Part shown: positions 7,438 through 44,609 of the stretch, piece by piece
How positions within the stretch are numbered: the stretch's first letter is position 1
How the letters are laid out: every line of letters begins with the position of its first letter
Virus record (IMG/VR): IMGVR_UViG_3300009156_000027
Origin: a virus
Length of the DNA: 64,000 nt
Direction: 5' to 3' (one strand)
Program-made: the position numbers and the translations under genes
Notes under the pieces: generated by a model
Told to the model about the DNA's origin: nothing
Databases searched by the model: none
Seen by the model: only the letters and a program-made list of their open reading frames with translations

Positions 7438-7751
7438 CTTCGGTTGTCGCGACCAAATGCGCTTCGCTCGACGAACTGTTCGAGGCCGAGAAGCCTGGAT
7501 CGTTCTGCATCAAGGAAGGAGAGAAGTGGTTTTACTGTGAGTGCCCATGTGGATGCGGACATCATATGAATCTGCCGATTCACAGGGCCGAAGAAACCGA
7601 TGGAAGAACTCCGTCGTGGATTTGGAACGGCGATCGTGACAAGCCAACGCTCCAACCGAGTATCCGAGATGTAGGGAGTTGTTTCTATCACGGTCACATT
7701 ACCGAAGGAGTGTGGACATTCGAAGGAGACAGCGGCGTTAACCCAAATTAG
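7434..7751 (+). CDS. DUF6527-like Cys/His metal-binding protein
   Basis: CPCGCG...W.WNG...PTLQPSI....C.YHGHI..G.W pattern. Confidence 0.65.
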   Translation: MTSVVATKCASLDELFEAEKPGSFCIKEGEKWFYCECPCGCGHHMNLPIHRAEETDGRTPSWIWNGDRDKPTLQPSIRDVGSCFYHGHITEGVWTFEGDSGVNPN

Positions 7752-7765
7752 GAGATCTCACCACC

Positions 7766-24734: not shown

Positions 24735-27068
24735 CTATTTCGCAGCGTTTGGGGGCGATTTCGGCAGCACCGGGGCCTCGCCGCCCCCGGCCGCACCCGC
24801 CCCGGCCACTGGCACGGTGGTGGCAGCAGGCTGGCCGTTGTCGCTCACTACGATTTTCGTACCTGTGCTACCGATGGTTACCTTGCCCAATGGGATGCGT
24901 ATGAACCGACGATGTTCCTTGATGCGACGTTTGATGACACGAATGCGTCCGGTAGGTCGACCTTTCATATCCTCCTGGGTGTACAGTTCGGCATCCTTGA
25001 CTTCCTTCAATACATAATCGGATAACGTCCAGGCACTCACCGAACCAGATCCATGGCGTTTGACGATTTGCAACGCGACAAGGTCTTGCATCAGGCGCTG
25101 TATCGTGGCAAACGGGTAGTGAGTTTTGGCAGCCATTTCCCGCATTGAGATTGGGGCCATGTTTTCGGTCCCACCCATTGCGCCAACGCCAATCAGGGTC
25201 CGCAACACATCCTCATTCCGCTGACTGATGGTATCCAGCATCACCTTCTTGATGAGATGATATTCGACCTCAGTCACCTCCACCTTGTTGTAGACCATCG
25301 CCATGCCGCGGGCCAGCTTCGCCAGTTGCTGACCGAGACGGGTACCAACCTCCGCCATCGGTCGCGACATCACGATATCATTTCGGTAGAAATCCCTTGA
25401 GACCGAGCCACGCATACGCGCTCCGAACTTCGCAAGGGCAACGATCTTGGAGAGGATGGCTTTCGGCATTCTCGGGGGCTGACGACTTGCACAAGTCCTT
25501 TCGAGGAAATTCTTAACGACATCGACAAGTTCGACACGCATGGCCGTTTCTCGGTCCGCGTTTTCGATCGCCTTTCGGATGACCTCATTTTCAGACTCAT
25601 GATGCAGATTGTCGCCTACCAGAAATTTCAAGAACCGTTCGCCAAGGGCCGCGTGCTGTTCCGCAAGGTCATAGATCCTAGGAGTCGTAGCGGCCAGGAT
25701 TGTGAACCGACTTTCGTAGGTCCTGTCGACGCCATTCCCGAATGACTTCCCGCATCGCCCGTCGTAGGCATCCCGCAAAATACCAAAGATCTCCTTCTGC
25801 TCGCGATCGGGGAGACTCAGGATTGAGGTGAAGTCTTTGACGACGAGAACTTTCCCATCCAGTTTTGGTATGAGAGAAGGGTCCCCCGTCTGCCCAGTAA
25901 AGTTGGCGCCCGAAATCAAGGATGGTGCTGTCAACGTCGACGTAGCGTGGGTCATCTCCACTTCCTGCAATGAGGAGACTATCGCCGTCTTCGCGGAGCC
26001 AGGCGGTCCCACCAAAAACATCCACACCGGAGAGCCGTCGATACGTTGTGACAGTACCACGGCCATCATCACATCGATGACTTCGGTCGTCCGGAGAAAC
26101 AGCCACCGGTTGAAGACATCGTGGACATCTCGTAAAGTAGGTGGGTGCGTCTTCCATTTGGACTCTGGCTCCTTACGTTTCTTGATTGTGATCTTACCGC
26201 TCTTTGAGACTACGGTCTCCCGTACTGGTTCCGACGGCGAATCCCACTTCGGCTTTCGATTGAACCGACGCTTTAATCGCTCCCAGCAGATGTCTGGGGT
26301 ATCGCGAATCGTCGTTCCGTAGACGATCCAATCTCTGGTGTCGAAACCCACTGGCACTTCGTCGGGCCAATGAACGAAGGTCAACTTGCGAACCCGACCT
26401 TGCAATCGTTCAAGTAAGATCTCTTCGCCCTTGCGGCCCGCCGGGTCATAGTCGTACAATGAATGGACGGTACGCCCCGAGAACCAAGACACCCAATCTT
26501 TCTTGAACGTCCCTGCACCCGGCACTCCAACAACCACACCGGGTTCGTTCAAGGTCTTCAAGAGCCACCGCAACGCAATGGTGTCCCATTCGCCTTCGCA
26601 CAAGTAGACCGGGTCCTTCTGGTTCTCCTTCAGAAGTTGGGCACGGAACAACCCCACATGACATCCAGACGTTGACATCATCAGCTTCGAACGGATGTTG
26701 TACTTCCGAATGTCGACGTAGTGTCCGTAATAGTCTTGGATAGGAAACGTAAATGCTTGACCATCCCACCCCATTCCCAATCCTTCGAACGCCGTCTTCC
26801 GAAGTTGCCGATTCTCCGCCAACTGACGAACCATCGATCCCTTGAGATCCTGCGCGTAGCGTTCGCCAGTCAGCTTCAAAAACTGGGAGATGTTTCCGGA
26901 TAGTCCCGCAGACTTGCTGTCCCACAATCCGAGCTTCGTGTTTACATAGAACTTATCATCCTTCCCAGAAAACGGACAATAGCCGAACGTTTGATTTCCA
27001 CGCTCACCGGTAAATTCAACTCCGTGAGCTTCGAAGATCTTCAACAGATTCTTCTTTTCACTCATCAC
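24735..27068 (-). CDS. Primase-helicase fusion: Zn-finger-like, TOPRIM, MCM-like AAA+
   Basis: CPF N-terminus; VYLCEGEWD and YDYDPAG (TOPRIM); LVGPPGSAKT (Walker A), LVVKDFT, ILRDAYDG, AATTP, GERF. Confidence 0.85.
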   Translation of the reverse strand: MMSEKKNLLKIFEAHGVEFTGERGNQTFGYCPFSGKDDKFYVNTKLGLWDSKSAGLSGNISQFLKLTGERYAQDLKGSMVRQLAENRQLRKTAFEGLGMGWDGQAFTFPIQDYYGHYVDIRKYNIRSKLMMSTSGCHVGLFRAQLLKENQKDPVYLCEGEWDTIALRWLLKTLNEPGVVVGVPGAGTFKKDWVSWFSGRTVHSLYDYDPAGRKGEEILLERLQGRVRKLTFVHWPDEVPVGFDTRDWIVYGTTIRDTPDICWERLKRRFNRKPKWDSPSEPVRETVVSKSGKITIKKRKEPESKWKTHPPTLRDVHDVFNRWLFLRTTEVIDVMMAVVLSQRIDGSPVWMFLVGPPGSAKTAIVSSLQEVEMTHATSTLTAPSLISGANFTGQTGDPSLIPKLDGKVLVVKDFTSILSLPDREQKEIFGILRDAYDGRCGKSFGNGVDRTYESRFTILAATTPRIYDLAEQHAALGERFLKFLVGDNLHHESENEVIRKAIENADRETAMRVELVDVVKNFLERTCASRQPPRMPKAILSKIVALAKFGARMRGSVSRDFYRNDIVMSRPMAEVGTRLGQQLAKLARGMAMVYNKVEVTEVEYHLIKKVMLDTISQRNEDVLRTLIGVGAMGGTENMAPISMREMAAKTHYPFATIQRLMQDLVALQIVKRHGSGSVSAWTLSDYVLKEVKDAELYTQEDMKGRPTGRIRVIKRRIKEHRRFIRIPLGKVTIGSTGTKIVVSDNGQPAATTVPVAGAGAAGGGEAPVLPKSPPNAAK

Positions 27069-29206
27069 GCCGCCATCTTCTTAGGAGCACCACCAACGAT
27101 CTCTGGTGGGAGAACAATCTTCGTTGGCCGTGACCAACGAGTCTTGGCGATTTTCATTTCAACCGGCAGTCGGACCGGCAACCCGAGACGCTTACTATCC
27201 TTCTGCATAGCTCGGATGATATCCTTCATCAGCTCGATACTATGCAACTTCTTTGGCAACTCGATAATGACTTCGTCGTGTACAGTCAGGAGCAGTCTCA
27301 CTCCCAACCGATACCAATCCGTCTCCTTCAACATCTCGTGAATGTTGATGAGACCGTTCTTCATCACATCCGCCGCGGTGCCTTGAATCAAGTAGTTAAC
27401 TGCACGATACGCGTAGTCTGGTTCGAACGTATAGCGACGACCAAATGGACTGTAGATCTCTCCAACCTGTGTCGCCTCAGCAATGAGGGCAGACATAAAC
27501 CGTTTGACACCGGGGAGCTTGGCTTCGTAGCCGGCCACGAACTCCTGTGCAGTATCGAGGTCGGATTTGAGAAGCTTCGCCACCTTGGGAACACCGCCCC
27601 CATACAACTTACAGAACATGATCAGCTTAGCGCACTTGCGGTAATAATCTTTGTGTTCGTCGAAGTCGTCGCGACTACTGAAGACTTGTTTGGCGATGCC
27701 TCCGTGATAGTCCTGTCCAGACATGAGGGCCGCTTGCATGGCCTTCTCGCCGGACAGATAGGCGAACAACCAAACTTCAATCTGCGAATAGTCGGGTAGA
27801 TACCAAATGCAACCAGGACGTGGACCAAAAGCTTCACGCGGTCTCGATTGAATATCCGCCTTGCGTCGGCCGGTGGTCTCCGACGCTACTTGTTGAAGGT
27901 TCGGATCAGAACACGACAGTCGGCCGGTAATCGCTCCTGTCTGTTTGAAGTTGGGATGAAGCGTCCATACTCCTGGCGACTCCTTCAACCAGTAGCGACG
28001 GTACACATGGAGAAATGAATTGTTTGTCTGCTGTGCCGCATTGTGTTCTAATACGGCTTTGGCCAATGGGTCTGGTGGAACCTTAATATACCGCGCACCG
28101 GTCTTCCGATTACGAAGCCACTTGCCACCAATCGGCAGGTGCTCGGTCTTCCGGTCCATATTGAACCACTCGGCGCTCTGGATCACATACCCGGTTCCCA
28201 TCTTTAGGAGATGTTCTCCGGTGAGCGAGTAGTTGAATGTCCCGGTCTTCTTGTTGAGTGTGCCAGTGAAGTTTGGTGGATGATGACGGGTCTCATAGAA
28301 CACCTTCGACATCTCTGGGGTGCTCTTGTAGTTCAGACCTTCGCCACCATTCGCCGAAGCGATCTTGCGTTGCTCCGCTCGATAGTTATTGTAGAACTTA
28401 ATCAAGGAACGTACACGCGGTCGGTGGATACGTGTGCCCGTGTCCTCCATATCTTTCAACACCCAGAACAACTTGTGCTCTCGATCGCAAACCTCCTTGG
28501 TCCGTGCGTCGGCTTGGATCTGGTCCCACCACGCTTTGTAAATGAGCATGGAACGAACCGCGTCGCCAACAGCATATGGAGCGATGAAACTATCCGGACA
28601 CAACCACATGTCCGACTTGGCGGGTTTCTTGCCACCGATGATCTTGTCGGCGATGGACCAACGTGTCTTCTTGGCCTGTTGCCGTCGCCGGTTGACTTCT
28701 TGGAGGAGCGTCTTCTCGTCGTCATCGGGATACTTGAAACGACGTTTGCAGAACTGCTTCAACGCGTAGGTGAGTTCTTGTCCACTCGTAGCGATATGGG
28801 CAATGATCTGCGTATCGAGGCAACGACCTCGCACTCGCATCCCGCCGTGTTCGGCCATCAAGATGTCGAATCGAAGGTTATGGCCGATCTTCGTAATGTC
28901 TTTGTCGTCCCAGAGTTCGGCAATCGCGGCGAGCTTTGACTTGTCGTGAAAGGAAACTTCTCTGGTGATCGGATCAACGTGACCACGAAGATAGTCGGTG
29001 TTTCCGTCTTGGTCGCACATCGACCACACGAATGCGCGAGCAGGAACTACCGACCGTACTTCAATGTCAGGCTTCTTCTTCGTTCCGAAGTTCAGGATTA
29101 GCCGACGCCAATCACCGTATGGCATCATGCCGGTCGTCTCGGAGTCGATGGCGATTGCTTTGCCGCGAACCTTGAGACCCGAACGCGAACCCAGTCTAAC
29201 TAACAC
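27065..29206 (-). CDS. polA: DNA polymerase, family A with 3'-5' exonuclease (start uncertain)
   Basis: IDSETTG, GHNLRFD, YA..D (Exo I-III); TGRLS..PNLQQ, DYSQIE (A), RKCAKLIMFCKLYG (B), TVHDE (C). Confidence 0.95.
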   Translation of the reverse strand: MLVRLGSRSGLKVRGKAIAIDSETTGMMPYGDWRRLILNFGTKKKPDIEVRSVVPARAFVWSMCDQDGNTDYLRGHVDPITREVSFHDKSKLAAIAELWDDKDITKIGHNLRFDILMAEHGGMRVRGRCLDTQIIAHIATSGQELTYALKQFCKRRFKYPDDDEKTLLQEVNRRRQQAKKTRWSIADKIIGGKKPAKSDMWLCPDSFIAPYAVGDAVRSMLIYKAWWDQIQADARTKEVCDREHKLFWVLKDMEDTGTRIHRPRVRSLIKFYNNYRAEQRKIASANGGEGLNYKSTPEMSKVFYETRHHPPNFTGTLNKKTGTFNYSLTGEHLLKMGTGYVIQSAEWFNMDRKTEHLPIGGKWLRNRKTGARYIKVPPDPLAKAVLEHNAAQQTNNSFLHVYRRYWLKESPGVWTLHPNFKQTGAITGRLSCSDPNLQQVASETTGRRKADIQSRPREAFGPRPGCIWYLPDYSQIEVWLFAYLSGEKAMQAALMSGQDYHGGIAKQVFSSRDDFDEHKDYYRKCAKLIMFCKLYGGGVPKVAKLLKSDLDTAQEFVAGYEAKLPGVKRFMSALIAEATQVGEIYSPFGRRYTFEPDYAYRAVNYLIQGTAADVMKNGLINIHEMLKETDWYRLGVRLLLTVHDEVIIELPKKLHSIELMKDIIRAMQKDSKRLGLPVRLPVEMKIAKTRWSRPTKIVLPPEIVGGAPKKMAA

Positions 29207-29669
29207 GGATGCTACGGGAGTAGCGTTGCAACCAGAACAAGAACGAACAACGATCGCAAATCTTCGGCGTCGTCTGCAACATATTACAACGCGTCGGTTC
29301 ATCGCTCTCGCAGCGACGGTGTGACTCGACGAACAAGGCCGCATCTTCAATGATACGAACCTTGTATTTCAACCAGAAATGAAACATCCCCATGTACACC
29401 GCGATGTCGATCATTCGCGATTCGGGCGACTCGCTTTCAACCTGACCTTCGATTACGAAACTTCGAAGGGCGATGTACTGCTTCCGAATCTTCGCCCAGA
29501 GATCTTGCTCGACTGTCATCTGACATTCCCACGCCGTCTGCAGTATCTCCAGGAAGGCGACTTTATCTGGATGGTAGTCGGCATTCTTCCGCCATTGGAG
29601 CTTGTTGGCGTCTTCGAAGAATGCCGCGACCTCTTCACTCATTTGCGTTGCATGCATCGTCGTCTCCAT
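29196..29669 (-). CDS. Nucleotide-modification-associated domain protein (Nmad1/DUF1599-like, all-alpha NTP pyrophosphohydrolase fold)
   Basis: L..RKNADY, AKIRK...L, ES.ESR.ID.AVY pattern. Confidence 0.65.
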   Translation of the reverse strand: METTMHATQMSEEVAAFFEDANKLQWRKNADYHPDKVAFLEILQTAWECQMTVEQDLWAKIRKQYIALRSFVIEGQVESESPESRMIDIAVYMGMFHFWLKYKVRIIEDAALFVESHRRCESDEPTRCNMLQTTPKICDRCSFLFWLQRYSRSIRVS

Positions 29670-29673
29670 CCAC

Positions 29674-29722
29674 GAAAGAACCCACCGACGTCGCTACCTA
29701 GGGCGGCAACAACGTCGGTGGG
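29674..29722 (-). terminator. Rho-independent terminator/attenuator after SSB gene
   Basis: Perfect 11-bp stem CCCACCGACGT/ACGTCGGTGGG followed on the minus strand by TTCTTTC. Confidence 0.55.
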
Positions 29723-29767
29723 GTTGGGCGCGGATCAACAACCTCCCAGCGGCTGACCCGACCCGAT

Positions 29768-30811
29768 CTATTTCTTGCTCTTCTTCTTGCCCTTCTTCGG
29801 AACGGACTTCGCGGGTGATTCCTCAACGGACGTAATGGCGTCGGCCTTGATCTTGACCGTCTTGCCCTTGTCGGTCTTGATCAGGACCTTACCTTCCTGC
29901 TCGAAGAGTTCGACGACCTCGCCCTTGATCTTGCCGGACTTCTTCGTCTCGGCCTTGACCACGGACCCGACGACGACGTCGACTTCATCTTCGACCTCTT
30001 CTTCTTCGTCGTCTTCTTCGTCTTCGTCCTCTTCGTCTTCCTCTTCGTCGTCCTCGTCTTTGGACTTGGATTTCTTGCCCTTCTTTTTCTTGCTGGGCTT
30101 CTCCTCCTCGTCCTCGTCGTCTTCCTCCTCGTCTTCTTCCTCTTCCTCCTCGTCGTCGTCAGACTCCTCGTCGTCATCGGACTCTTCTTCTTCCTCGTCG
30201 TCCGATTCCTCCTCGTCGTCCTCTTCTTCTTCGTCTTCGTCGTCCTCTTCGTCGTCCTCGTCGTCGTCCTTCTTCTTGGACTTCTTCTTGGACTTCTTCG
30301 GTTCGTCGTCGTCCTCGTCCTCGTCCTCTTCTTCCTCCTCGTCGTCATCTCCAACGAGGCCGTCGACGTAGACGTTCTGGAACTCGCCCTTGGTCTTCAA
30401 GCGGACGCGGCACTTCGGCTTCGTCTTCTTGATGTCATCGAGGATGTCCTTGAGTTCCTTCTCCATGTCCTCGAGCTCGGACACATCGTAGCCCATCGCG
30501 TCGAGTTTGCGAAGCAAGTACTCCAGATGGTCCTCGGTCAGACCTTCGAAGTCGAGCTTCTCCTTGCCCTTGTATTCGCCATCCATGAACTTCCACGTGA
30601 TGACGACCTGGACCCGCTTGTTCTTCGAGACACCGATCTTCGCATCGGTCGCCCGCATCCGATAGCGACCGTCGTCGTATTCAGCGAACCCGCCGGTTGC
30701 CGCCTTCTCCTTCGCTTCGTCGAGATTCTTGTTGAGCCGGCGAAGGTACTTGCCGAAATCAACCCCAGATGACGACGACTTGCCTTTCGATTTCTTTTCC
30801 TTCTTCTTCAT
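29768..30811 (-). CDS. ssDNA-binding protein (DUF669-like) with very long acidic tract
   Basis: FAEYDDGRY...V.ITWKF.DGEYKG, CRVRLKTKGEFQNVYV (OB-like); ~130 aa D/E/K low-complexity region; small C-terminal SH3/KOW-like domain; next to Sak4-like ATPase. Confidence 0.75.
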   Translation of the reverse strand: MKKKEKKSKGKSSSSGVDFGKYLRRLNKNLDEAKEKAATGGFAEYDDGRYRMRATDAKIGVSKNKRVQVVITWKFMDGEYKGKEKLDFEGLTEDHLEYLLRKLDAMGYDVSELEDMEKELKDILDDIKKTKPKCRVRLKTKGEFQNVYVDGLVGDDDEEEEEDEDEDDDEPKKSKKKSKKKDDDEDDEEDDEDEEEEDDEEESDDEEEEESDDDEESDDDEEEEEEDEEEDDEDEEEKPSKKKKGKKSKSKDEDDEEEDEEDEDEEDDEEEEVEDEVDVVVGSVVKAETKKSGKIKGEVVELFEQEGKVLIKTDKGKTVKIKADAITSVEESPAKSVPKKGKKKSKK

Positions 30812-30822
30812 GTGATCTCCTG

Positions 30823-31707
30823 TCAATGTTTACCGATCCGGAACTTCTTCTTCTTGACTGTGGTGGCAGCCTCCTCTTCGTCGATGTCCGACGACCGCGT
30901 CGGGACGTACTCGTTGTTGAACGCCGCGGTGACGTTCTTGTACGCTTCCTTGGCCGAGGTTCCCATATCGATTCGACGAATCGGTTTCCCGTCTGGTGTG
31001 AGAAACCGTCCTTCGAGTCGATGTCCTGCCGAGACGTGGTCGTCGCCAAGGATCTGTAGAACCCGTCGTCGCTTGTCGTATGAATAGTACGCCCAGATGT
31101 CGACCGATCCTTCGACGAGGTCGCGCATCTTCTTGTGCATGGTCGGCATCATGCGGTCGTACGTTGCGCCGTCCCGTGTCTCCACTTCCACTTCTTGGGC
31201 ATGTGAAAGGAAGATCACTCCCTTGCCGGAGTTGAGCAATTCACCAAACGTTCGTTCGAACTCCCTACGATTCTCTCGCCACCCCTTGCCCCACTCCTCG
31301 TCGGCCAAGTCGTCGATGACCAACTTCTCGCAAGTGTAGTCTTCGACCATTGGGTACAACGGATCGACAATGTCAACGACCACGGTGTCGAAGGTCTTGT
31401 CTTTTCTCAACGCCTTGATCGCCTTCTTGAACTTCCGCCAGCTGTTGATCACCACTGGGTAGAGACGTAGTGCCTTGCCACCCGGCTCCGTGAATAGGTG
31501 AATCGCTTTGCCGAACAACGCGGTCAACGACGTCTTGCCGATTTTCTTCTCGCCGAAGATCAGCCACGTGTAGGCTCCCAAGGAATCTTCCGGTTCGGAC
31601 CGCTCAGTAGGGAGTACGAACTTCTCCTCCCCAGTCTCCTCGCGCTCGCGAACCTTCTTTTTCTTGTCGGCCTTTTTGTGGCCCTTCAACTTCTTCAGGA
31701 CGGCCAC
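30823..31707 (-). CDS. Sak4-like/AAA_24 P-loop ATPase (ssDNA annealing protein)
   Basis: WLIFGEKKIGKTSL, FDTVVVD, GVIFLSHA, VDIWAY motifs. Confidence 0.85.
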   Translation of the reverse strand: MAVLKKLKGHKKADKKKKVREREETGEEKFVLPTERSEPEDSLGAYTWLIFGEKKIGKTSLTALFGKAIHLFTEPGGKALRLYPVVINSWRKFKKAIKALRKDKTFDTVVVDIVDPLYPMVEDYTCEKLVIDDLADEEWGKGWRENRREFERTFGELLNSGKGVIFLSHAQEVEVETRDGATYDRMMPTMHKKMRDLVEGSVDIWAYYSYDKRRRVLQILGDDHVSAGHRLEGRFLTPDGKPIRRIDMGTSAKEAYKNVTAAFNNEYVPTRSSDIDEEEAATTVKKKKFRIGKH

Positions 31708-31708
31708 G

Positions 31709-31921
31709 TTACTCGTCGTCCTCGGTCTTGACGTGGCGGATCTCCACGTTGTTCGCGCCACCGTTCGTCTCAAGCACGATGGTGCGACCACCCGTCGGCT
31801 TGTACGTCGCTTTGTTACCGTCGTCCGTGTCGTTGGTTTGTTTCATCCCACTGAAGAGTTGAATCTTGCACGTGGGATCGTCCACCATCTTTCGGACGAT
31901 GTCTTTCAGTGCCTCATCCAT
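31709..31921 (-). CDS. Hypothetical protein
   Basis: 70 aa, coupled to its neighbours. Confidence 0.55.
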   Translation of the reverse strand: MDEALKDIVRKMVDDPTCKIQLFSGMKQTNDTDDGNKATYKPTGGRTIVLETNGGANNVEIRHVKTEDDE

Positions 31922-33080
31922 GACGAGCCTTCACTTTCAACGAGGCGAGTGGAATCACCTGACCGGCCACCTCTACCGGTTCAGGCTTAAGGGAATTACC
32001 ATTCCCTGCGAAGACGTATTGACGCATCGTCTTCAGATGCTCTGCAACCATTAGCTGCAGTTTCTCGTCGGAATCCTTCGCGTATTCGGCTCCCGGCGGT
32101 TTGATGAGACCCTGACGCCATCCACCGTTGTAGCTGCACACAGAACAGGGTGTCATGTTACGGTTCTTCCGGAACAGCAATTCCCGAATCGCGTTCATCT
32201 GCACAGACTCCCAGATCTGCTGCAGCGATTGATTGGGAAACTTACCAACCGGTAACTGCGTCGACCAGTCGTAGCAGCACACAGGCACTACACCATTGTA
32301 GCCCATATTGAGTTCTCGGAACGGCCGTGTGCATTTCTTCTTAAGCGGCTCGGTGATTGGCTCCTGTCCCAAGAGATTCTGCAACGGCTTCTCCGGCGAG
32401 TTGCCAGCTTCGTTGTTGATATCCTTTGAGACCGGACGTCCGGTCTCCGCCCGCTTCTTCGTGTTCACCTCTCCCAGATCGTCGAGCACAAAGATCTGTT
32501 GTCGGTTGGTCGGATACCGTCGATAGATCGAGAGATGATCTGGGTTGTCGTAGTAGTGATCCGTGACCCGGATGTCTTTGTCCTTGGCGTATTGCTTAGC
32601 GTAGGCCATGAACATTTCATACCGAGTCTTATGTCGTTCATGCGGTTTGCCCCACCACCGCTTGTAGGCGTTGATAGCCAACAAGTTCAGACCCTTGGCA
32701 AACCATTCGTCAGCCGACGATCTGAACGTCTTCCAGTCCTCGATCTGGGAGCCGTTGGTCTGCAGTTGGATATGGGCGTTGGGATCCAACCGAATCGCTG
32801 CAATGATTCCTGCGAAGTTCTTGTGCAACGTCGGCTCACCATGGTTGTCGAGTTCGACACGCACCCCACCAGGGAGCCATCGCTGAGTCTCCTTGAACAT
32901 CGCGCGAACGAGTTCGACTGGCATCTCTCGATAGTCCGCCCACCCGGTGCCTGGGGTGTCTTTGGAACGAACGCTATGGATGCCGCAGAACCAACAACTA
33001 TAATTACAACCTTCCACAACCTCCAATTGTATGGACCACGGCAAGGCGACGAACGGTTTCTTTGGCAACGAGATCTTCAT
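31914..33080 (-). CDS. Radical SAM enzyme with SPASM/twitch domain
   Basis: CNYSCWFC (CxxxCxxC), HGEPTLH, TNGS; C-terminal CTRPF...VCCYDW...CSVC; ATGA overlap at start. Confidence 0.92.
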   Translation of the reverse strand: MKISLPKKPFVALPWSIQLEVVEGCNYSCWFCGIHSVRSKDTPGTGWADYREMPVELVRAMFKETQRWLPGGVRVELDNHGEPTLHKNFAGIIAAIRLDPNAHIQLQTNGSQIEDWKTFRSSADEWFAKGLNLLAINAYKRWWGKPHERHKTRYEMFMAYAKQYAKDKDIRVTDHYYDNPDHLSIYRRYPTNRQQIFVLDDLGEVNTKKRAETGRPVSKDINNEAGNSPEKPLQNLLGQEPITEPLKKKCTRPFRELNMGYNGVVPVCCYDWSTQLPVGKFPNQSLQQIWESVQMNAIRELLFRKNRNMTPCSVCSYNGGWRQGLIKPPGAEYAKDSDEKLQLMVAEHLKTMRQYVFAGNGNSLKPEPVEVAGQVIPLASLKVKARHG

Positions 33081-33211
33081 TTCTTCAACTCCGCCGCCAA
33101 CGCCAACACGTTGGGCAGGCATAGCAGTACAACAATGAATAGGACAAAGACACCAATCGCGATCATTGACAGAGCGCCCCACGCAAAGAGTATAATCTCC
33201 AACCAAGTCAT
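33077..33211 (-). CDS. Small membrane protein
   Basis: MTWLEIILFAWGALSMIAIGVFVLFIVVLL hydrophobic stretch; ATGA coupling on both sides. Confidence 0.55.
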   Translation of the reverse strand: MTWLEIILFAWGALSMIAIGVFVLFIVVLLCLPNVLALAAELKK

Positions 33212-33390
33212 TTCATCATCTCCTTCTTCTTCTGCTTGTCCATGTATTGGATATAACGCCACGCCGCATACAGCACACGGTGAGCAATCGGATTCGAAAT
33301 CGGCGCGTTGGCTGGAGCACCGGCATAGTTCGCTTCAGCGACCGCATCTCGTAGACGCTTGTACAACGACTCCTCTTTCGTCAGACTCAC
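33208..33390 (-). CDS. Hypothetical protein
   Basis: 60 aa, translationally coupled. Confidence 0.55.
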   Translation of the reverse strand: MSLTKEESLYKRLRDAVAEANYAGAPANAPISNPIAHRVLYAAWRYIQYMDKQKKKEMMK

Positions 33391-34163
33391 GGTTCAACCT
33401 CCAACGACTTTTCGATTTGCGTCCACGGAAAAGTCACCCGGACCTTCTCCATGTATTGCGGATGCGTCTGCGAGAATCTCTGGATAGCGATTCCGACTTT
33501 CCGAACCCGTTCGCCGATACCGCCGTAGCCTCCCGGCATGTAACGTTTCTTCTGAAATGGCGCGTCCATACAGACCATCTGCGCAGTGAGGTTCATATCG
33601 AACGCGGCAAAGGTGACCTGCACATCGTCCATACAACCTTCGTCAACGACGTAGCGCATCTTGTTGTACAGAGTATGTGGGATCGCCCAGAACATCGCCG
33701 ACCTCTTCTTGTAGAAGCGTAACCCGTCGTGGGTCTCGACTCCCTTCTTGATACGCCCAGAATCGAAATGTTCGGCTGTCCCATGCATCCCTGCGATGAG
33801 GCAAGGTTGAATCGGATAGACGAACGACGCACGCACCAGGTTTTTCAAACTCTTTTCGGTGTAACGCGTATTGTCGTCGGTCACCACGTAGCGATCGAAC
33901 TTCACTTCAGTGGCTTCCTGACGAAGCATCTCACGCGCGTAGGTCCCACTACCATAGGGATTCTCGTACGTGATCCAAGTTACCCTATCGAACTCCCTTC
34001 GTACCGGGAGGTATTTCTTCCTTTCTTTTTCTTCCACACCAATGAATGTGCTGGGTCGGTTCAGGAACGGCTGTGCGCGTAAGGTCTTCAACAAGACTTC
34101 TGGTCGTCCCTTCGATGGGATCAGTACTGCAAATGAACGTTGAAGTTTAACACGCACAGCCAT
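33387..34163 (-). CDS. TAGT/GREB1-like glycosyltransferase (GT-A)
   Basis: VLIPSKGRP, IGVEEKE..KY, G...ARE, VVTDDN, MDD, MPGG pattern of the TET-associated glycosyltransferase family. Confidence 0.75.
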   Translation of the reverse strand: MAVRVKLQRSFAVLIPSKGRPEVLLKTLRAQPFLNRPSTFIGVEEKERKKYLPVRREFDRVTWITYENPYGSGTYAREMLRQEATEVKFDRYVVTDDNTRYTEKSLKNLVRASFVYPIQPCLIAGMHGTAEHFDSGRIKKGVETHDGLRFYKKRSAMFWAIPHTLYNKMRYVVDEGCMDDVQVTFAAFDMNLTAQMVCMDAPFQKKRYMPGGYGGIGERVRKVGIAIQRFSQTHPQYMEKVRVTFPWTQIEKSLEVEP

Positions 34164-34169
34164 CTCCTT

Positions 34170-34541
34170 CTACTTGACGGTGTCCCGCTTCTTCTCGAGC
34201 TTCGCTTTCTTGGCCGAGAGCTTGTTGATGCGACTGTCGATCTTGTCGATCCGCTTCTGGATTCGCGCGACCTTCTTATCGACCTTCTTCTTTGCTCGCG
34301 CGTCGGCCGGTGTCGACTTCTTCGGTGGTACTGCAACAGACTTCTTCGCCATGGTGGTTAGTTCCTGCGCCAAACGTTTTTTGAATTGTGGTCGTGCGCG
34401 GCGCAAAGCGTCCGCCACAAAGTGTGAGCCTTTTAAAAACAGCGTTGGGTCTTCCTGGATTGCACGGCCTGGTTCTCCTGCGAACGGATTCCCGTCTCGC
34501 TCGCCCAGATAGTCGATGTATCGGTCCTCATGATATCCCAT
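34170..34541 (-). CDS. Basic coiled-coil protein (alternative start 34352)
   Basis: Lys-rich helical C-terminal half. Confidence 0.5.
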   Translation of the reverse strand: MGYHEDRYIDYLGERDGNPFAGEPGRAIQEDPTLFLKGSHFVADALRRARPQFKKRLAQELTTMAKKSVAVPPKKSTPADARAKKKVDKKVARIQKRIDKIDSRINKLSAKKAKLEKKRDTVK

Positions 34542-34553
34542 GCCCAGGTACCG

Positions 34554-35810
34554 CTACTTTATCTGGTCGTGTGGGTACTTTCCGTTGGTCGGGATCCAAC
34601 GAATCTGTCCGCCCTCCATACTCTCAGGAGCGAGAACGAAGAACGGCATCTGCTCAGGCCGGTGTTGCCGAGTCAAACTGTCTTTCCCAACGTACTTGTG
34701 ATACGGAGCATAACGATGTCCACCGGGTTCCGGATCTCTCTTGCAGACCTCGCAGTACTCCTGGGCTGGTCCTTCTTCTCGATCAATCAGATGATTGCCT
34801 TGCGCGTGTCCGCACTCCGCACATCGTTCGTACGGGTTCGGATACTTGCCGTCCGGTGGCCAGGACTCGAGACCTGCAAACCGTGCCGCCTTGGCCTTGT
34901 CGCTGTGACTGCCGAGATACTTCGAGATGATGGGTGGGCATTTCATCTTCACTTCGCGCAGCATCAACTGAGCGACGCAATTGAATTCCCAGTCCATAAT
35001 GTGCTCAAGACGGTTGGCCAACACACCGGACAGGGCAATCCAATTGTACTGGTCGTGGATATAGGTCTGCATTCCCATGAACAGTACGCGACGAGCGTCC
35101 TGCCAGGGAATGCCGGCATCGACCAGTGCCGAGTACAACCGACGACCGTTGTCGATGTGCTTCAGAATCTGCGCATGGAGTGTCGGGTCACCGTCTTTCG
35201 ATTCCATCCCATCGAACACCGGCTGATGTGACAGATACTCCTTGATGGGTTCCCAATTCGTAATGCAATGCTCGAGACTCTCCGGCAAGAGGGCACCCTT
35301 GTCGTGCACTGCACACGCCCGACGTATCGTCTCCGGCATCGTCCACGCGCGATGACGCCAGTCGTTGTCGCGCCCGCCGTGCTGCATGAAACCGGCACCC
35401 AGACGCGTCCGAACGTTCTGGTGTGTAAATGCGCGTGAGACTCCGTCGATGCAGAAGTCGAACGTGATTCCTTCGAGGACCTGCTGCAACGTCTTGCCCG
35501 CGAAGCAGGACTCGACATAGTCGCGTTCGTCTGGAAGCAACCGTGTCCATCCGGTGACGAAGGCAACCTTCGGATCGTTCACACGCGTGTCGATCGTCAG
35601 ATTGAGATTGGGTTCGCGGTTCACAGTCCGCGATGGCGACTCGCCCCAGTTCGCTTGGAGTGCGTCGTACATGGATGTGAACAAGTTCACTGTCGGACCC
35701 CATCGATCCAATGTGACCTTCAGACTGTCCGGCCCGTAGGTGATGGGATTCGTTGGCTCTTCGCCCGTATGAATGGCGTGAGGCCGGTGCTTCGCATCTT
35801 CGTAAGCCAT
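34554..35810 (-). CDS. Divergent ThyX-like (flavin-dependent thymidylate synthase fold) protein
   Basis: LEGITFDFCIDGVSRAFTHQNVRTR...QHGGRD and WQDARRVL...YN...L....RL...WEF align with ThyX; several catalytic positions differ; Cys-rich C-terminal extension. Confidence 0.8.
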   Translation of the reverse strand: MAYEDAKHRPHAIHTGEEPTNPITYGPDSLKVTLDRWGPTVNLFTSMYDALQANWGESPSRTVNREPNLNLTIDTRVNDPKVAFVTGWTRLLPDERDYVESCFAGKTLQQVLEGITFDFCIDGVSRAFTHQNVRTRLGAGFMQHGGRDNDWRHRAWTMPETIRRACAVHDKGALLPESLEHCITNWEPIKEYLSHQPVFDGMESKDGDPTLHAQILKHIDNGRRLYSALVDAGIPWQDARRVLFMGMQTYIHDQYNWIALSGVLANRLEHIMDWEFNCVAQLMLREVKMKCPPIISKYLGSHSDKAKAARFAGLESWPPDGKYPNPYERCAECGHAQGNHLIDREEGPAQEYCEVCKRDPEPGGHRYAPYHKYVGKDSLTRQHRPEQMPFFVLAPESMEGGQIRWIPTNGKYPHDQIK

Positions 35811-35822
35811 CTTCGTCTCCTT

Positions 35823-36845
35823 TTATTCTGCGGTGATCTCGAACGGGATCTTCCCAGGCATCTTCTTCTCCCTCTCCATCAAATCGTGCAGGCTTCGTAC
35901 GGTGAGCGGGTTGTGCGTCGGGTCGGATTCGTCGAACGGTAGTTTGCGATCGAGCTTGTAAGTCTTGATCATTCGAGACCGCAACTGTTCGACGAACTTG
36001 TCGCTGTCGTCAACTGCGAACACGATTTGTCCGCGCATGGTTGCTGGTCCCTCTTCGATGCGCTCTCCTTTCTCGTTAGCCCACCACAGGAAATCGAATG
36101 GCAAATTGTTGTTGGTCAACCACGTGATCGTGTCGGTGAAGATGTTCGGATACAAATCGACCGGTCTGCTAGTGATGAGAATGATCGTCCAGCCTTGGGC
36201 TCGGCACCATTCGAGAAACGGCTTGGCGTCCGGGAACACCGGAAGGGTTTGCTTGCCGCCGCGTGTGCGGAAGTCGTGTTTAACTTTCTGCCACTCCAGA
36301 TGGGGAAACCCAACGGATGACGACGAAATAAATGTCCCGGACTTCTCGATACGGTCCAGGTTTTCAATCAGTCGCCGAGTATCGGAAGGAGAGAGCTTCA
36401 TCAACTGCGCTCCCCATTCACGAGCCCACCGACACATCCCGGTCAGGTAGTCGGCTAACACCTGATCGATATCAACGATCACCGAGGGTCCATCGATCGT
36501 TGCTAACCACTCCTCCTGGTAGCGATAGCGGACCACTCGGCTCTTGGCGTAGTAGAGTTCTTCCAATCGTTCCATCGGGAAGTCTGCGAGGTCGCAGAGC
36601 GAGAGCCAGTACTTGAACTGGTCAATCAACTCCTCGTGTGAATGAGCGACGTTCTGAAGACGAACCTTCGACCGACGATGCACCTTATAATCGAAGGTGC
36701 GGATGAACTCTAAGGACTCCTCAATCAACCCGAAGGTCAGATCGCGAAGTCGTGCGAGGAACGCCGGCTGATCGTCCTTGAATTTCTCGCGGTCCCAAAT
36801 CAGTTTGTTGAACGCTCGCTGGTCTTTGTAGAGTTTTGTAATCAT
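35823..36845 (-). CDS. Dimeric dUTPase/MazG-like dNTP pyrophosphatase fused to a HAD phosphatase
   Basis: LIEESLEF...HEELIDQFKY (all-alpha NTPase acidic helices); VDIDQVLAD, ITSR, VDD (HAD motifs I, II, IV). Confidence 0.8.
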   Translation of the reverse strand: MITKLYKDQRAFNKLIWDREKFKDDQPAFLARLRDLTFGLIEESLEFIRTFDYKVHRRSKVRLQNVAHSHEELIDQFKYWLSLCDLADFPMERLEELYYAKSRVVRYRYQEEWLATIDGPSVIVDIDQVLADYLTGMCRWAREWGAQLMKLSPSDTRRLIENLDRIEKSGTFISSSSVGFPHLEWQKVKHDFRTRGGKQTLPVFPDAKPFLEWCRAQGWTIILITSRPVDLYPNIFTDTITWLTNNNLPFDFLWWANEKGERIEEGPATMRGQIVFAVDDSDKFVEQLRSRMIKTYKLDRKLPFDESDPTHNPLTVRSLHDLMEREKKMPGKIPFEITAE

Positions 36846-37663
36846 CGCTTGTCGCCATTCTCCGAGACCCAGGTCTCGATATGATGCCACGTCTCGTGGG
36901 CGAGTTCGTCTGGACGCCATGTGGCGAAGCGACCGAAACAGTGCACATCATGTAGACGCATCGTCGCTAGCATCAACTCGCTTTCCGGATGTGCATGAAT
37001 CTTTCCAGGAAGAAGTTTCTTGGCTAGTGACGTCGGAGTGAGTTGTTCGTAGAAATCGTATCCCGGTGTGCGGGTCTCCCGATAGCAAGATACGGTGGGG
37101 TCGGAGAGATAGTTGAGCACCATCCCTTTCGGGTCGTTGAACTTCTTGGGAATGGTGGTCATGAAGATGGCGTTGGACTTAAAGGGTTCCTTGAACTCCG
37201 GACCCACGATCATCAGATCAAGGAAGGCAGGAAGCGGGATCGTGTTGATCAGGATGTCATATTCAATCGTTTTCCAGTCCGCCATCCCCAAGGTATGGCC
37301 GGGCAGGTCGACCATGCGAACCGTCTGACCGAATTCAATCGTGGGCACGGGAAGTTTGGATTCCCACCCTACGCTCTCGTGTTGAAACTGAAGACCCCAG
37401 TTGCCACCATCGTCTTCTTTGCCGATCTTCTTCTTGTAAGCCAAGATGCTCTCTGGGGTAGGAGGTTGGCCGTCAACCAGCGTCGTCACCGGAAACGACT
37501 CCGACGGCACACCCGGGATTGGCTCCCAGAGATACTGCGGCCCCATCCGCGTCTCCATATGATTGACTGGGGGCGTCTTCCGCCAATCCAACAACCGAGC
37601 TTCTGGAACAGCCAACTGGAACAGCTGCGCTGCAAACCCGCCACCTATCACGACTATCTTCAT
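36842..37663 (-). CDS. FAD-dependent enzyme, UDP-galactopyranose-mutase-like fold
   Basis: KIVVIGGGFAA (Rossmann), GPQYL, YDILINTIPL, CFGRFATW motifs. Confidence 0.7.
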   Translation of the reverse strand: MKIVVIGGGFAAQLFQLAVPEARLLDWRKTPPVNHMETRMGPQYLWEPIPGVPSESFPVTTLVDGQPPTPESILAYKKKIGKEDDGGNWGLQFQHESVGWESKLPVPTIEFGQTVRMVDLPGHTLGMADWKTIEYDILINTIPLPAFLDLMIVGPEFKEPFKSNAIFMTTIPKKFNDPKGMVLNYLSDPTVSCYRETRTPGYDFYEQLTPTSLAKKLLPGKIHAHPESELMLATMRLHDVHCFGRFATWRPDELAHETWHHIETWVSENGDKR

Positions 37664-37923
37664 CTCATCCTCACATCTTTGATCGACGCTTCCAGTTGGC
37701 CCTTCGTGGTCAGTACGTAATATCCGCGACGGTCGAGTGTAATATATCCTTTCCGCGCCAAGGCCGCTACCATCGTCCCGTGCAACGATCGCATCGGAAA
37801 TGAATTGATAGCATATCGAATTGCCATCCATTGCCTCGGATGCTTCTGAAGGAAGATGACTCGTTTCTCCGATGCCATCTCCCACAACAACGCTCGTTGT
37901 GCTCTTGTTAGTTCTTTCTTCAC
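37660..37923 (-). CDS. Small winged-helix-like protein
   Basis: LTRAQRALL...TMVAALARKGYI...Y.LT.KG; GTGA coupling. Confidence 0.5.
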   Translation of the reverse strand: MKKELTRAQRALLWEMASEKRVIFLQKHPRQWMAIRYAINSFPMRSLHGTMVAALARKGYITLDRRGYYVLTTKGQLEASIKDVRMR

Positions 37924-38171
37924 TGGTTCGGAACCACCATCGTCGGTACCGCGAGATACCGATGCAGACTCTCTGGGAAGTAGCCGTGTTCGGTTAAGCC
38001 GGTATCGTCCCAGCGAACCGCGCACATCAACACGCCCTGACTCATTGCCGACGGATGTCCTCGATAGACGTCAACGAGCACACCAAACCGCGGTGTGTCG
38101 GTTGCGGTTAATCCCTTGCGCATGACACGCTCACCGATCTCAAGTTGTTTCGGGTTTTCCATCTCCATCCT
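37920..38171 (-). CDS. Small SH3-like hypothetical protein
   Basis: IGERV...G.LV.V...V.WD pattern. Confidence 0.5.
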   Translation of the reverse strand, partial: RMEMENPKQLEIGERVMRKGLTATDTPRFGVLVDVYRGHPSAMSQGVLMCAVRWDDTGLTEHGYFPESLHRYLAVPTMVVPNQ

Positions 38172-44356: not shown

Positions 44357-44609
44357 TCCCCATCTCAATCGCTTCGGCCGAAGGACCGCGCGAGTCCCCG
44401 ACCTTCGGTTCGAACGAACAGGGTTGTCCTTCCCACATATCGTAGATGGGGAATCCGTACTTCACTTTCGTCTGGTGGGCGAAGTACTTTACACCATCAT
44501 CGCCGGTGATCCAAAAGAATCCCCGATCAGGCAAGGTGGCCTTGACTTTGCCGGTCATCCGTACCGATGTCCTATTCTGCATGTCCGATCCTCGATCCGT
44601 GATCAGCAT
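44343..44609 (-). CDS. Cold-shock domain protein
   Basis: MTGKVK....RGFFWI...G..YFAH......GQ...FE......GP.A..I (RNP1/RNP2-like). Confidence 0.8.
   Translation of the reverse strand: MLITDRGSDMQNRTSVRMTGKVKATLPDRGFFWITGDDGVKYFAHQTKVKYGFPIYDMWEGQPCSFEPKVGDSRGPSAEAIEMGNAQT

What the first reader, a model, noticed from the sequence alone, without database searches (positions are those of the whole stretch)
29196..37663. Candidate new DNA hypermodification pathway: altered ThyX, TAGT-type GT, UGM-like flavoenzyme, radical SAM, dNTPase-HAD and Nmad1, with no TET
Seen: one translationally coupled minus-strand run next to PolA encodes a UGM-like FAD enzyme, a dUTPase/MazG-HAD fusion, a ThyX-fold protein, a TAGT/GREB1-like glycosyltransferase, a radical SAM-SPASM enzyme and an Nmad1/DUF1599-like protein. 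Established: TAGT-family enzymes glycosylate hydroxymethylated bases made by TET/JBP dioxygenases; phages that replace a base typically encode a dNTP pyrophosphatase to remove the canonical nucleotide; UGM enzymes make furanose NDP-sugars. No TET/JBP, ThyA-type hydroxymethylase, hmdU kinase or methyltransferase is recognisable in this nearly complete genome. Inference: the ThyX-like protein makes a hydroxylated or otherwise modified pyrimidine nucleotide, PolA incorporates it, and the GT adds a sugar, possibly a furanose from the UGM-like enzyme, that the radical SAM enzyme remodels. I do not know this combination as a described pathway.
Basis: partly seen in the sequence, partly recalled or inferred. 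Interest (0 to 1): 0.9.

Follow-up and report, generated by a model that had tools for sequence, protein, structure and literature searches.

The report
Phage ThyX–flavoprotein–nucleotidase cassette with add-ons
An uncultured soil phage carries, next to its DNA polymerase, a widespread but uncharacterised three-enzyme set (an altered ThyX, a small sugar-mutase-like flavoprotein and a nucleotidase fusion) that probably tailors a pyrimidine DNA building block, plus an optional sugar-adding enzyme and a radical enzyme; no chemistry has been shown.

Summary

**What each gene is**
- Confirmed: a 273-aa UGM-like flavoprotein, an all-alpha + NT5C-like HAD fusion, a 418-aa signature-variant ThyX, a sub-threshold TAGT-like GT-A and a radical SAM-SPASM enzyme.
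- The "MazG" call is weak. The "Nmad1" call is not confirmed.

**What travels together**
- Flavoprotein, HAD fusion and ThyX stay together in 14 of 16 long genomes of this phage family.
- Versions of the set sit beside the replicative polymerase in Pbunavirus, Krampusvirus, other actinophages and unrelated metagenomic phages.
- The GT is in 9 of 16 genomes, the rSAM in 2 of 16.
- Seven flavoprotein-bearing genomes have no GT homologue, so the flavoprotein is not the GT's furanose supplier.

**Against blanket DNA protection:** many family members, including GT carriers, avoid restriction sites strongly.

**Best reading (about 0.4):** a pool-level pyrimidine-tailoring cassette, with GT and rSAM as lineage-specific add-ons. 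Plain dTMP supply remains a serious rival (about 0.3).

**Context**
- Pbunavirus DNA carries a sugar-like thymidine with no genes assigned (Yee et al. 2025).
- ThyA-fold flavin 5-hydroxy-dCMP synthases working with a UGM and DNA GTs were described in 2026.
- This scan found the same cassette before on other DNA.

The parts
36842..37663 (-). Minimal UGM-like FAD flavoprotein (273 aa); constant member of the cassette
   Evidence: It has a GGG Rossmann motif. An invariant Y-R-E-T motif aligns to the AfUGM 'FYRAT' segment. It ends in a C-terminal GRFATWR motif. The family has 527 representative clusters, nearly all 270-310 aa.
35823..36920 (-). All-alpha N-domain (MazG/dimeric-dUTPase-like, weak) fused to an NT5C-like HAD phosphatase; probable true start at 36845
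   Evidence: The HAD domain matches Giuseppe gp64 by BLASTP at 2e-9, and gp64 hits PF06941 NT5C over its cut-off. HAD motif I reads D-I-D-x-V-L-A-D-Y.
34554..35810 (-). Long signature-variant ThyX-fold protein (418 aa), with N- and C-terminal extensions and an invariant insertion after the substrate loop
   Evidence: RHR has become RTR, the motif Ser is Gly145 and the Tyr is Asp148. The Arg equivalents R240 and R267 are kept. The score of 50.3 bits is below the TIGR02170 cut-off of 87.9.
34170..34541 (-). Small basic coiled-coil protein (123 aa), found in the closest GT-bearing relatives
33387..34163 (-). TAGT-like GT-A glycosyltransferase (258 aa), accessory
   Evidence: Orthologues are in 9 of 16 long genomes and conserve the GRP, TDDN and (D/E)D motifs.
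33208..33390 (-). 60-aa ORF between the GT and the rSAM gene; not conserved in relatives and possibly not a gene
31914..33080 (-). Radical SAM-SPASM/twitch enzyme (start taken at Met43 of the long ORF), accessory
   Evidence: It has the CxxxCxxC motif. The best solved relative is BtrN at E 2e-4. It occurs only in the window, G004 and L001.
29196..29669 (-). 157-aa all-alpha protein with a Cys-rich tail, just upstream of PolA; relation to the cassette uncertain
   Evidence: There is no DUF1599 HMM hit. Homologues are in 6 of the other 15 long genomes.

Best explanation
The window carries one version of a widespread phage cassette that sits beside the replicative polymerase. It has three members: a minimal UGM-like flavoprotein, a nucleotidase-type HAD fusion and a signature-variant ThyX.

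The most likely job is tailoring the pyrimidine deoxynucleotide pool before replication.
- Inferred: the ThyX-fold flavoenzyme puts a non-methyl or otherwise altered group on C5 of a pyrimidine dNMP.
- Inferred: the all-alpha/HAD fusion drains the competing canonical dNTP and dNMP.
- Unknown chemistry: the small flavoprotein acts on the same nucleotide-linked substrate.

In this phage's sub-lineage a TAGT-like GT-A, and here also a BtrN-like radical SAM enzyme, were added in a variable slot between ThyX and Sak4. They would decorate the product after replication (inferred). The modification is probably partial or context-dependent rather than a full base replacement.

Shown: gene identities, co-occurrence and altered motifs. 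Not shown: any chemistry, the substrate, or that DNA is the target.
For: **Gene identities:**

**The trio travels together**
- It is kept in 14 of 16 long genomes of the family, while structural genes and even the PolA type vary.
- ThyX is the best-conserved protein of the module (46-68% identity, against 29-60% for the flavoprotein).

**The same set occurs in unrelated phages, always before the polymerase**
- Krampusvirus Haunter: gp52 next to a 446-aa ThyX-like gp53.
- Pbunavirus phage 109: flavoprotein (hhalign E 1.4e-5, end to end), ThyX and a 345-aa HAD fusion before DnaE.
- Actinophages: flavoprotein plus NT5C-like HAD.
- Two distant metagenomic members: flavoprotein, Thy1 and a roughly 320-aa protein before a DnaE-UDG fusion.

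**Altered ThyX:** the substrate-loop Ser is Gly and the Tyr is Asp, followed by an invariant insertion, while the phosphate- and base-binding Arg are kept.

**A modification hot spot:** the slot between ThyX and Sak4 holds DNA-modification-type genes in relatives: class I MTases with a GT, or MT-A70.

**Published context**
- Pbunavirus DNA has a sugar-like thymidine derivative with no genes assigned (PMC12191111).
- Thymidylate-synthase homologues can be flavin-dependent C5 hydroxylases feeding DNA GTs (PMC13326640).
Against: - There are no chemical data for any carrier of this exact family.
- Hexamer palindromes are strongly avoided in many members that have the trio, and in GT carriers too: G011 has 17 sites at z < -2.5, G013 has 9 and G001 has 7. 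This fits DNA that restriction enzymes can cut.
- No dNMP kinase was found in the window.
- The three genes are separable. G016 has ThyX alone, actinophages have the flavoprotein and HAD without ThyX, and Haunter has no detectable HAD.
- Most catalytic Arg of ThyX are intact, so ordinary dTMP synthesis is not excluded.
- The Pbunavirus mark is TG-specific and covers about a quarter of T. A pool enzyme alone does not explain that.
- Within the family, co-occurrence is partly shared descent.
Confidence: 0.4

Rival explanations
1. Ordinary nucleotide supply. The ThyX-fold protein is a working thymidylate synthase with lineage-specific decorations. The all-alpha/HAD fusion sanitises or balances dUTP, dUMP and dTMP. 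The small flavoprotein is a redox or one-carbon helper. The GT and rSAM do something unrelated.
For: - Thy1 scores over Pfam's cut-off and the key Arg are kept.
- The nearest cultured-phage ThyX proteins share the RTR variant and are annotated as plain ThyX.
- Restriction-site avoidance across the family suggests largely unmodified DNA.
- No dNMP kinase was found.
- A later check of an earlier scan finding reached the same caution.
Against: - Ser to Gly and Tyr to Asp are invariant in the dUMP loop, and about 200 extra, highly conserved residues are present.
- The score is below the ThyX equivalog cut-off.
- A dedicated UGM-like flavoprotein has no role in known ThyX biology, yet it co-occurs across unrelated phages.
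- In actinophages the flavoprotein and HAD pair with MTases or SDRs in place of ThyX.
Confidence: 0.3
2. ThyX makes a hydroxylated pyrimidine, PolA incorporates it, the GT adds a furanose made by the UGM-like enzyme, and the rSAM remodels that sugar.
For: - All parts are present and tightly packed.
- There is a precedent: RL38J1 uses a phage UGM with DNA GTs on 5-hydroxycytosine.
- The rSAM's best solved relative is the sugar-type dehydrogenase BtrN.
- The two GT+rSAM genomes show no palindrome avoidance (n = 2).
Against: - The flavoprotein is present without any GT homologue in 7 of 16 long genomes. G001 and G002 also gave no hit to the GT2, GT1 or TAGT Pfam models.
- At 273 aa it gives no Pfam hit, and its size leaves no room for the helical domain that holds the uridine in UGMs.
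- GT carriers G011-G014 avoid restriction sites most strongly.
Confidence: 0.07
3. The GT (with the rSAM) glycosylates something other than DNA. Candidates are a replication-module protein, such as the adjacent basic 123-aa protein or the acidic SSB-like protein, or a host molecule. The trio works independently of it.
For: - TAGT stays below its cut-off and there is no TET/JBP partner.
- The window has five further GT-like genes that look virion-directed.
- GT presence does not relieve restriction-site avoidance.
- In G013 the GT sits between Sak4 and the acidic protein.
Against: - The nearest feature neighbours are viral TAGT clusters.
- The motif pattern R...DDN...(D/E)D resembles the R...DDD...EDY/F pattern of phage DNA GT-A enzymes and JGT.
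- The GT always lies in the replication module.
- The same slot holds DNA MTases in relatives.
Confidence: 0.2

Closest known systems
Glycosylated 5-hydroxycytosine pathways of RB69, DLP3 and Rhizobium phage RL38J1 (Lee et al., NAR 2026, PMC13326640)
   Same: A thymidylate-synthase homologue that uses flavin chemistry on C5 of a pyrimidine dNMP before replication. DNA GTs act afterwards. RL38J1 also has a phage-encoded UGM.
   Different: - There the enzyme has the ThyA fold; here it has the ThyX fold.
- Those phages have a dedicated dNMP kinase and full-size UGM or arabinose genes; here no kinase was found.
- The flavoprotein here is a 273-aa minimal form and is not linked to the GT.
- Nothing has been measured for this family.
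Pbunavirus replication-module cassette (phage 109 gp083-gp091) and the unassigned thymidine hypermodification of F8 and 14-1 (Yee et al. 2025, PMC12191111)
   Same: A remote homologue of the flavoprotein (hhalign E 1.4e-5), an RTR-variant ThyX (30% identity) and a roughly 345-aa HAD fusion sit in the same order before the polymerase. The DNA carries sugar-like thymidine derivatives.
   Different: - The polymerase is DnaE, not PolA.
- The ThyX is short (305 aa) and lacks the window clade's insertion and extensions.
- Pairwise HAD similarity is not detectable.
- There is no TAGT-like GT or rSAM.
- No gene-to-modification link has been shown there either.
Actinophage gene set annotated 'oxidoreductase' + phosphatase/NT5C (+ methyltransferase, SDR or ThyX-like): Mycobacterium Plotvirus, Gordonia Terapinvirus/Lambovirus, Microbacterium Krampusvirus, Streptomyces phages
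   Same: Full-length homologues of the flavoprotein occur in 126 records, and the HAD domain matches at BLASTP 2e-9. The position is the same, between the recombination genes and the polymerase.
   Different: The third partner varies and is often a SAM methyltransferase or an SDR. The HAD is not fused to an all-alpha domain. No function has been published.
Canonical flavin-dependent thymidylate synthase ThyX (T. maritima TM0449, PDB 1o26 and relatives)
   Same: The fold is the same: Pfam Thy1, and the profile matches PDB ThyX at E 5e-6. Equivalents of Arg78, Arg80, Arg90, Arg147 and Arg174 are kept.
   Different: - It is 418 aa against about 220-250.
- His79 is Thr, Ser88 is Gly, Tyr91 is Asp and the Arg165 position is lost.
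- An invariant insertion and conserved terminal extensions are present.
TET/JBP-associated glycosyltransferases (TAGT, PF20691) and base-J glucosyltransferase-like phage GT-A enzymes
   Same: GT-A fold with a DxD-type motif. Nearest neighbours by features are viral TAGT clusters. It lies among replication genes.
   Different: It scores below the family cut-off. There is no TET/JBP or C5-MTase partner. The acceptor is unknown.

Membership tests
ThyX / Thy1 flavin-dependent thymidylate synthase | Pfam PF02511 match over the gathering score | tested here: met
   63.6 bits against a cut-off of 24.8, E 2.7e-17
ThyX / Thy1 flavin-dependent thymidylate synthase | ThyX signature RHRxxSxxxxSxR(Y/F) | tested here: not met
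   Aligned with phage ThyX proteins, the motif reads R-T-R ... Q-H-G-G-R-D, so the Ser is Gly145 and the Tyr is Asp148. These two changes are invariant in 16 of 16 aligned family members.
ThyX / Thy1 flavin-dependent thymidylate synthase | NCBIfam equivalog TIGR02170 cut-off | tested here: not met
   50.3 bits against 87.9
ThyX / Thy1 flavin-dependent thymidylate synthase | dUMP to dTMP activity with CH2-THF and NADPH | not testable with these tools
   Needs an enzyme assay or thyA complementation.
UDP-galactopyranose mutase (GLF) | FAD Rossmann motif and sequence or fold likeness to UGM | tested here: met
   Profile E 2.1e-6 to T. cruzi UGM. Foldseek's top 11 hits are UGMs, E 1.6e-9.
UDP-galactopyranose mutase (GLF) | Three-domain architecture of about 370-510 aa with the helical uridine-binding domain; Pfam GLF match | tested here: not met
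   The protein is 273 aa. There is no Pfam hit at E up to 10. TM-score by target is 0.32-0.40. The whole family is 270-310 aa.
UDP-galactopyranose mutase (GLF) | Works with a glycosyltransferase that uses the furanose | tested here: not met
   It is present in 7 of 16 long genomes that have no GT homologue.
TAGT (PF20691) DNA-base glycosyltransferases | Pfam match over the gathering score | tested here: not met
   22.6 bits against 27.5. Six of six homologues hit at E about 1e-4, over the N-terminal 90 positions only.
TAGT (PF20691) DNA-base glycosyltransferases | Neighbouring TET/JBP dioxygenase (or another maker of a hydroxyl acceptor) | tested here: not met
   No TET/JBP in Pfam scans of the window's larger ORFs. 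A ThyX-fold gene is the neighbour instead.
TAGT (PF20691) DNA-base glycosyltransferases | Sugar transfer to a modified base in DNA | not testable with these tools
   Needs an in vitro assay or nucleoside LC-MS.
Radical SAM-SPASM/twitch enzymes | CxxxCxxC cluster motif plus a C-terminal auxiliary-cluster domain | tested here: met
   PF04055 at 41.5 bits and PF13186 at 38.7 bits, both over their cut-offs. The motif C-N-Y-S-C-W-F-C is visible.
MazG / dimeric dUTPase all-alpha NTP pyrophosphatases | Significant profile match and paired acidic metal-binding motifs | tested here: inconclusive
   - Best PDB hit is 5mil at E 0.46.
- PF08761 is only 'faint' in a homologue.
- The model is helical but has low pLDDT.
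- E-E-x-x-E and E-E-L-x-D motifs are conserved.
NT5C-type HAD 5'(3')-deoxyribonucleotidases | HAD fold with DxD motif I and an NT5C profile match | tested here: inconclusive
   The HAD fold and DxD motif are met. P0003 itself has no PF06941 hit, but its homologue Giuseppe gp64 (BLASTP 2e-9) scores 31.9 bits against a cut-off of 24.8.
Nmad1 / DUF1599 | PF07659 profile match | tested here: not met
   No hit in 6 of 6 family members at E up to 1. The only support is an Atlas lead, 0.89 by features and TM 0.57 by structure.

The most novel reading that the evidence does not exclude
The ThyX-fold enzyme and the UGM-like flavoprotein together carry out a new kind of flavin-N5 iminium chemistry. Instead of the one-carbon (formaldehyde-level) unit of ThyX, an aldose or sugar fragment is joined through its carbonyl carbon to C5 of a pyrimidine dNMP. 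The product would be a polyhydroxyalkyl-pyrimidine, like the 'sugar alcohol' thymidines of Pbunavirus F8 and 14-1 and the dihydroxypentyl-uracil of SP-15. The window's GT and rSAM would then elaborate it further.
Probability: 0.08. Interest if true: 0.92.

Novelty: new variant of a known kind. Interest (0 to 1): 0.62.

Why it matters
If the cassette tailors a pyrimidine nucleotide, it would be the first ThyX-fold route to a non-canonical DNA base.

It would also assign genes to a modification already seen in therapeutic Pseudomonas phages, and would predict unnoticed DNA modifications in more than a hundred cultured actinophages.

It is directly testable because cultured carriers exist: Pbunavirus, and Mycobacterium, Gordonia, Microbacterium and Streptomyces phages.

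If instead it is plain dTMP supply, the result still defines a large, unannotated family of minimal UGM-like flavoproteins tied to phage replication modules.

Tried and rejected
- **Complex prediction, ThyX-like with flavoprotein:** no verdict, score 0.00. This is not evidence either way.
- **Megablast of the region against GenBank phages:** no match.
- **tblastn of the GT against cultured phages:** no match.
- **GT profile against PDB sequences:** no hit.
- **P0006 as DUF1599/Nmad1:** no HMM support. hhalign of P0006 against the N-domain of the HAD fusion gave nothing.
- **Late GT cassette (6098-9864, 62708-63781) as the flavoprotein's client:** rejected, because those genes are absent from four relatives that keep the flavoprotein.
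- **GT presence explaining relaxed restriction-site avoidance:** rejected, no correlation across 16 genomes. Only the two GT+rSAM genomes show none, and that sample is too small.
- **Pairwise BLAST of the HAD fusion against the Pbunavirus HAD protein:** no significant similarity.
- **No whole genome is held for the window**.


Full report
**1. What is there**

The minus strand from about 24.7 to 39.5 kb is one tightly packed replication module. Read in the direction of transcription it holds:

| Coordinates | Gene | Evidence |
|---|---|---|
| 38502-39533 | PD-(D/E)XK nuclease | Atlas features, 98 of 100 hits |
| 37660-38025 | 121-aa ORF | |
| 36842-37663 | 273-aa flavoprotein | |
| 35823-36920 | fusion protein, likely start 36845 | |
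| 34554-35810 | 418-aa ThyX-fold protein | |
| 34170-34541 | 123-aa basic protein | |
| 33387-34163 | 258-aa GT-A | |
| 33208-33390 | unconserved 60-aa ORF | |
| 31914-33206 | radical SAM-SPASM, likely start 33080 | |
| 30823-31791 | Sak4-like AAA_24 ATPase | |
| 29768-30826 | acidic SSB-like protein | |
| 29196-29669 | 157-aa protein | |
| 27065-29350 | PolA | |
| 24735-27068 | primase/helicase-like protein | |

The DNA comes from rhizosphere metagenomes. No whole genome is held, and no cultured phage is close at the DNA level.

**2. The individual calls**

*Flavoprotein*
- A profile of eight homologues hits only eukaryotic UDP-galactopyranose mutases in the PDB (E 2.1e-6).
- An AF2 model (pLDDT 81) has UGMs as its best Foldseek matches (E 1.6e-9).
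- An invariant Y-R-E-T aligns with the UGM 'FYRAT' segment.
- It is 273 aa, against 470-510 for those UGMs, and it has no Pfam hit.
- An exhaustive profile search finds 527 representative clusters, nearly all 270-310 aa.
- It is therefore a distinct minimal family, not a UGM proper.

*Fusion protein*
- The C-terminal half is a confident HAD fold with a D-I-D-x-V-L-A-D-Y first motif.
- That half is homologous to mycobacteriophage Giuseppe gp64 (BLASTP 2e-9). Gp64 scores over the NT5C deoxyribonucleotidase cut-off.
- The N-terminal half is helical with conserved acidic motifs. Its likeness to dimeric dUTPase/MazG is weak (E 0.46; a 'faint' PF08761).

*ThyX-fold protein*
- It scores well over Pfam's cut-off but under the NCBIfam equivalog cut-off.
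- In alignment with phage ThyX proteins and T. maritima ThyX, RHR is RTR, the motif Ser is Gly and the Tyr is Asp.
- An invariant clade-specific insertion follows directly.
- The equivalents of Arg147 and Arg174 are kept.
- The family is very large: 297 hits, typically on 55-78 kb contigs.

*GT*
- All six close homologues match TAGT at E about 1e-4, below the cut-off.
- 88 of the 100 Atlas feature hits are viral TAGT-family clusters.

*rSAM*
- Both Pfam domains are over their cut-offs.
- Its only solved sequence relative is BtrN, a sugar-type dehydrogenase (E 2e-4).

*The 157-aa protein*
- It is not supported as DUF1599/Nmad1. Only a weak Atlas lead points that way.

**3. What travels with what**

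Sixteen long genomes of the family were compared: the window plus 15 IMG/VR records.

| Gene | Genomes with a homologue |
|---|---|
| ThyX-like | 16 |
| HAD fusion | 15 |
| Flavoprotein | 14 (one contig ends inside the cassette; G016 lacks both partners) |
| GT | 9 (E 1e-14 to 1e-136; conserved GRP, TDDN and (D/E)D motifs) |
| rSAM | 2 (plus fragment L001) |

Further points:
- The stretch between ThyX and Sak4 is a variable slot. It holds GT+rSAM here, a class I MTase plus GT in L008, an MTase plus GT plus a DUF559 nuclease in L012, MT-A70 in L019, and nothing in many relatives.
- Seven genomes have the flavoprotein but no GT homologue. G001 and G002 (89% and 98% complete) gave no hit to the GT2, GT1 or TAGT Pfam models.
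- The window's late GT genes are absent from four relatives.
- The flavoprotein therefore does not exist to feed a phage GT.

**4. The cassette outside this family**

tblastn of the flavoprotein finds full-length homologues annotated 'oxidoreductase' in cultured actinophages, 126 records in all.

| Phage | What lies next to the flavoprotein |
|---|---|
| Microbacterium Haunter | gene overlaps a 446-aa 'ThyX-like' gene |
| Microbacterium TinyMiny (same genus) | phosphatase and a second oxidoreductase in place of ThyX |
| Mycobacterium Giuseppe | NT5C-like or HAD phosphatase, with MTase or SDR |
| Gordonia NorManre | as above |
| Streptomyces ShakeNBake | as above |
| Mycobacterium Leopard | as above |

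Other carriers:
- Pbunavirus phage 109 has, before DnaE, a 'polyamine oxidase' that aligns end to end with the flavoprotein profile (hhalign E 1.4e-5). It also has an RTR-variant ThyX, the best cultured-phage match to the window's ThyX (30% identity), and a 345-aa HAD fusion.
- Two distant metagenomic members of the flavoprotein family sit next to a Thy1 gene and a roughly 320-aa gene, before a DnaE-UDG fusion.
- Earlier notes of this scan describe the same cassette in Pbunavirus, Wifcevirus and actinophages. I re-checked the Pbunavirus and actinophage cases myself.

**5. Literature**

- No ThyX-based DNA modification pathway turned up.
- SP-15 has two Thy1-family genes, and one was only hypothesised to be an hmdUMP synthase (PMC5977210).
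- Pbunavirus F8 and 14-1 replace about a quarter of T, in TG context, with sugar-alcohol-like or pentose-like derivatives. No genes are assigned (PMC12191111).
- ThyA-fold homologues in RB69, DLP3 and RL38J1 are flavin-dependent 5-hydroxy-dCMP synthases. Their product is glycosylated in DNA with furanoses, and RL38J1 encodes a UGM (PMC13326640).
- Phage DNA GT-A enzymes resemble JGT and share R...DDD...EDY/F motifs (bioRxiv 2023.12.21.572611).

**6. A test of heavy modification**

Markov-corrected counts of palindromic hexamers, as the number of sites at z < -2.5:

| Genomes | Sites |
|---|---|
| window, G004, G015 | 0 each |
| G001 | 7 |
| G002, G006 | 3 each |
| G008 | 5 |
| G011 | 17 (overall O/E 0.54) |
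| G012, G014 | 6 each |
| G013 | 9 |

- Strongly avoided sites include CCCGGG, CCGCGG, GTCGAC and CTGCAG.
- The trio alone does not shield DNA from type II enzymes, and neither does the trio plus GT (G011-G014).
- That argues against full replacement by a bulky base. It fits either a light or partial, context-dependent mark or no DNA mark at all.
- Only the two GT+rSAM genomes show no avoidance. That is suggestive, but n = 2 and the hosts may differ.

**7. Reading**

- Best supported (0.4): a pool-level pyrimidine-tailoring cassette, with the GT and rSAM as lineage-specific add-ons.
- Serious rival (0.3): ordinary dTMP supply and pool sanitation.
- The complex prediction for ThyX with the flavoprotein gave no verdict.
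- Every chemical step is inferred.
- I rate this a new variant of a known kind. Pathways built on thymidylate-synthase homologues that modify a pyrimidine before replication are known; here the enzyme has the ThyX fold and comes with a new minimal flavoprotein family. It can be tested in cultured phages.

Noticed in passing
L008:9992-11524 (IMG/VR relative G003): The ThyX-like protein carries a C-terminal acyl-carrier-protein-like domain (PF00550 is listed for P0040). The usual attachment Ser reads Glu (D-E-L-D).
   Followed up: no
window 42987-44368, minus strand: An SNF2-type helicase is split into two overlapping ORFs: the SNF2 N-part at 43847-44368 and Helicase_C at 42987-43907. Both halves are conserved in all four relatives compared, so the split may be natural or a conserved frameshift.
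   Followed up: partly
window 27065-29350 versus G001, G002, G006, G007: The family carries very divergent PolA versions. PolA is about 70% identical in G003 and G004, 39-56% in six other genomes, and only about 30% in G001, G002, G006 and G007. ThyX-like stays at 58-68% identity in these six genomes. This points to polymerase replacement beside a stable cassette.
   Followed up: partly
window 6098-9864 and 62708-63781: The late-region GT-like genes have no counterpart in four relatives. One is a GT4 that also gives a weak GT4-conflict hit. They are a window-specific addition.
   Followed up: partly
L123:8732-10876 and L124:7999-10870: Distant carriers of the flavoprotein and ThyX pair encode a DnaE-type polymerase with a uracil-DNA-glycosylase-family (PF03167) domain in the same product.
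   Followed up: no
L021:6986-7798 (Microbacterium phage Haunter gp52): The annotated start of the 'oxidoreductase' seems too far downstream. The GxGxxG Rossmann motif lies in frame just upstream, directly after the stop of gp51.
   Followed up: partly
L012:3003-3452 and L019:11642-12178: The variable slot between ThyX and Sak4 also takes up a DUF559/Vsr-like endonuclease and an MT-A70 adenine methyltransferase in relatives.
   Followed up: no
window, whole; G004; G015: Palindromic hexamers are not avoided in the window, G004 and G015, unlike most relatives of similar GC content and length (GTCGAC is 0 against 13-15 expected in G002 and G006).
   Followed up: partly
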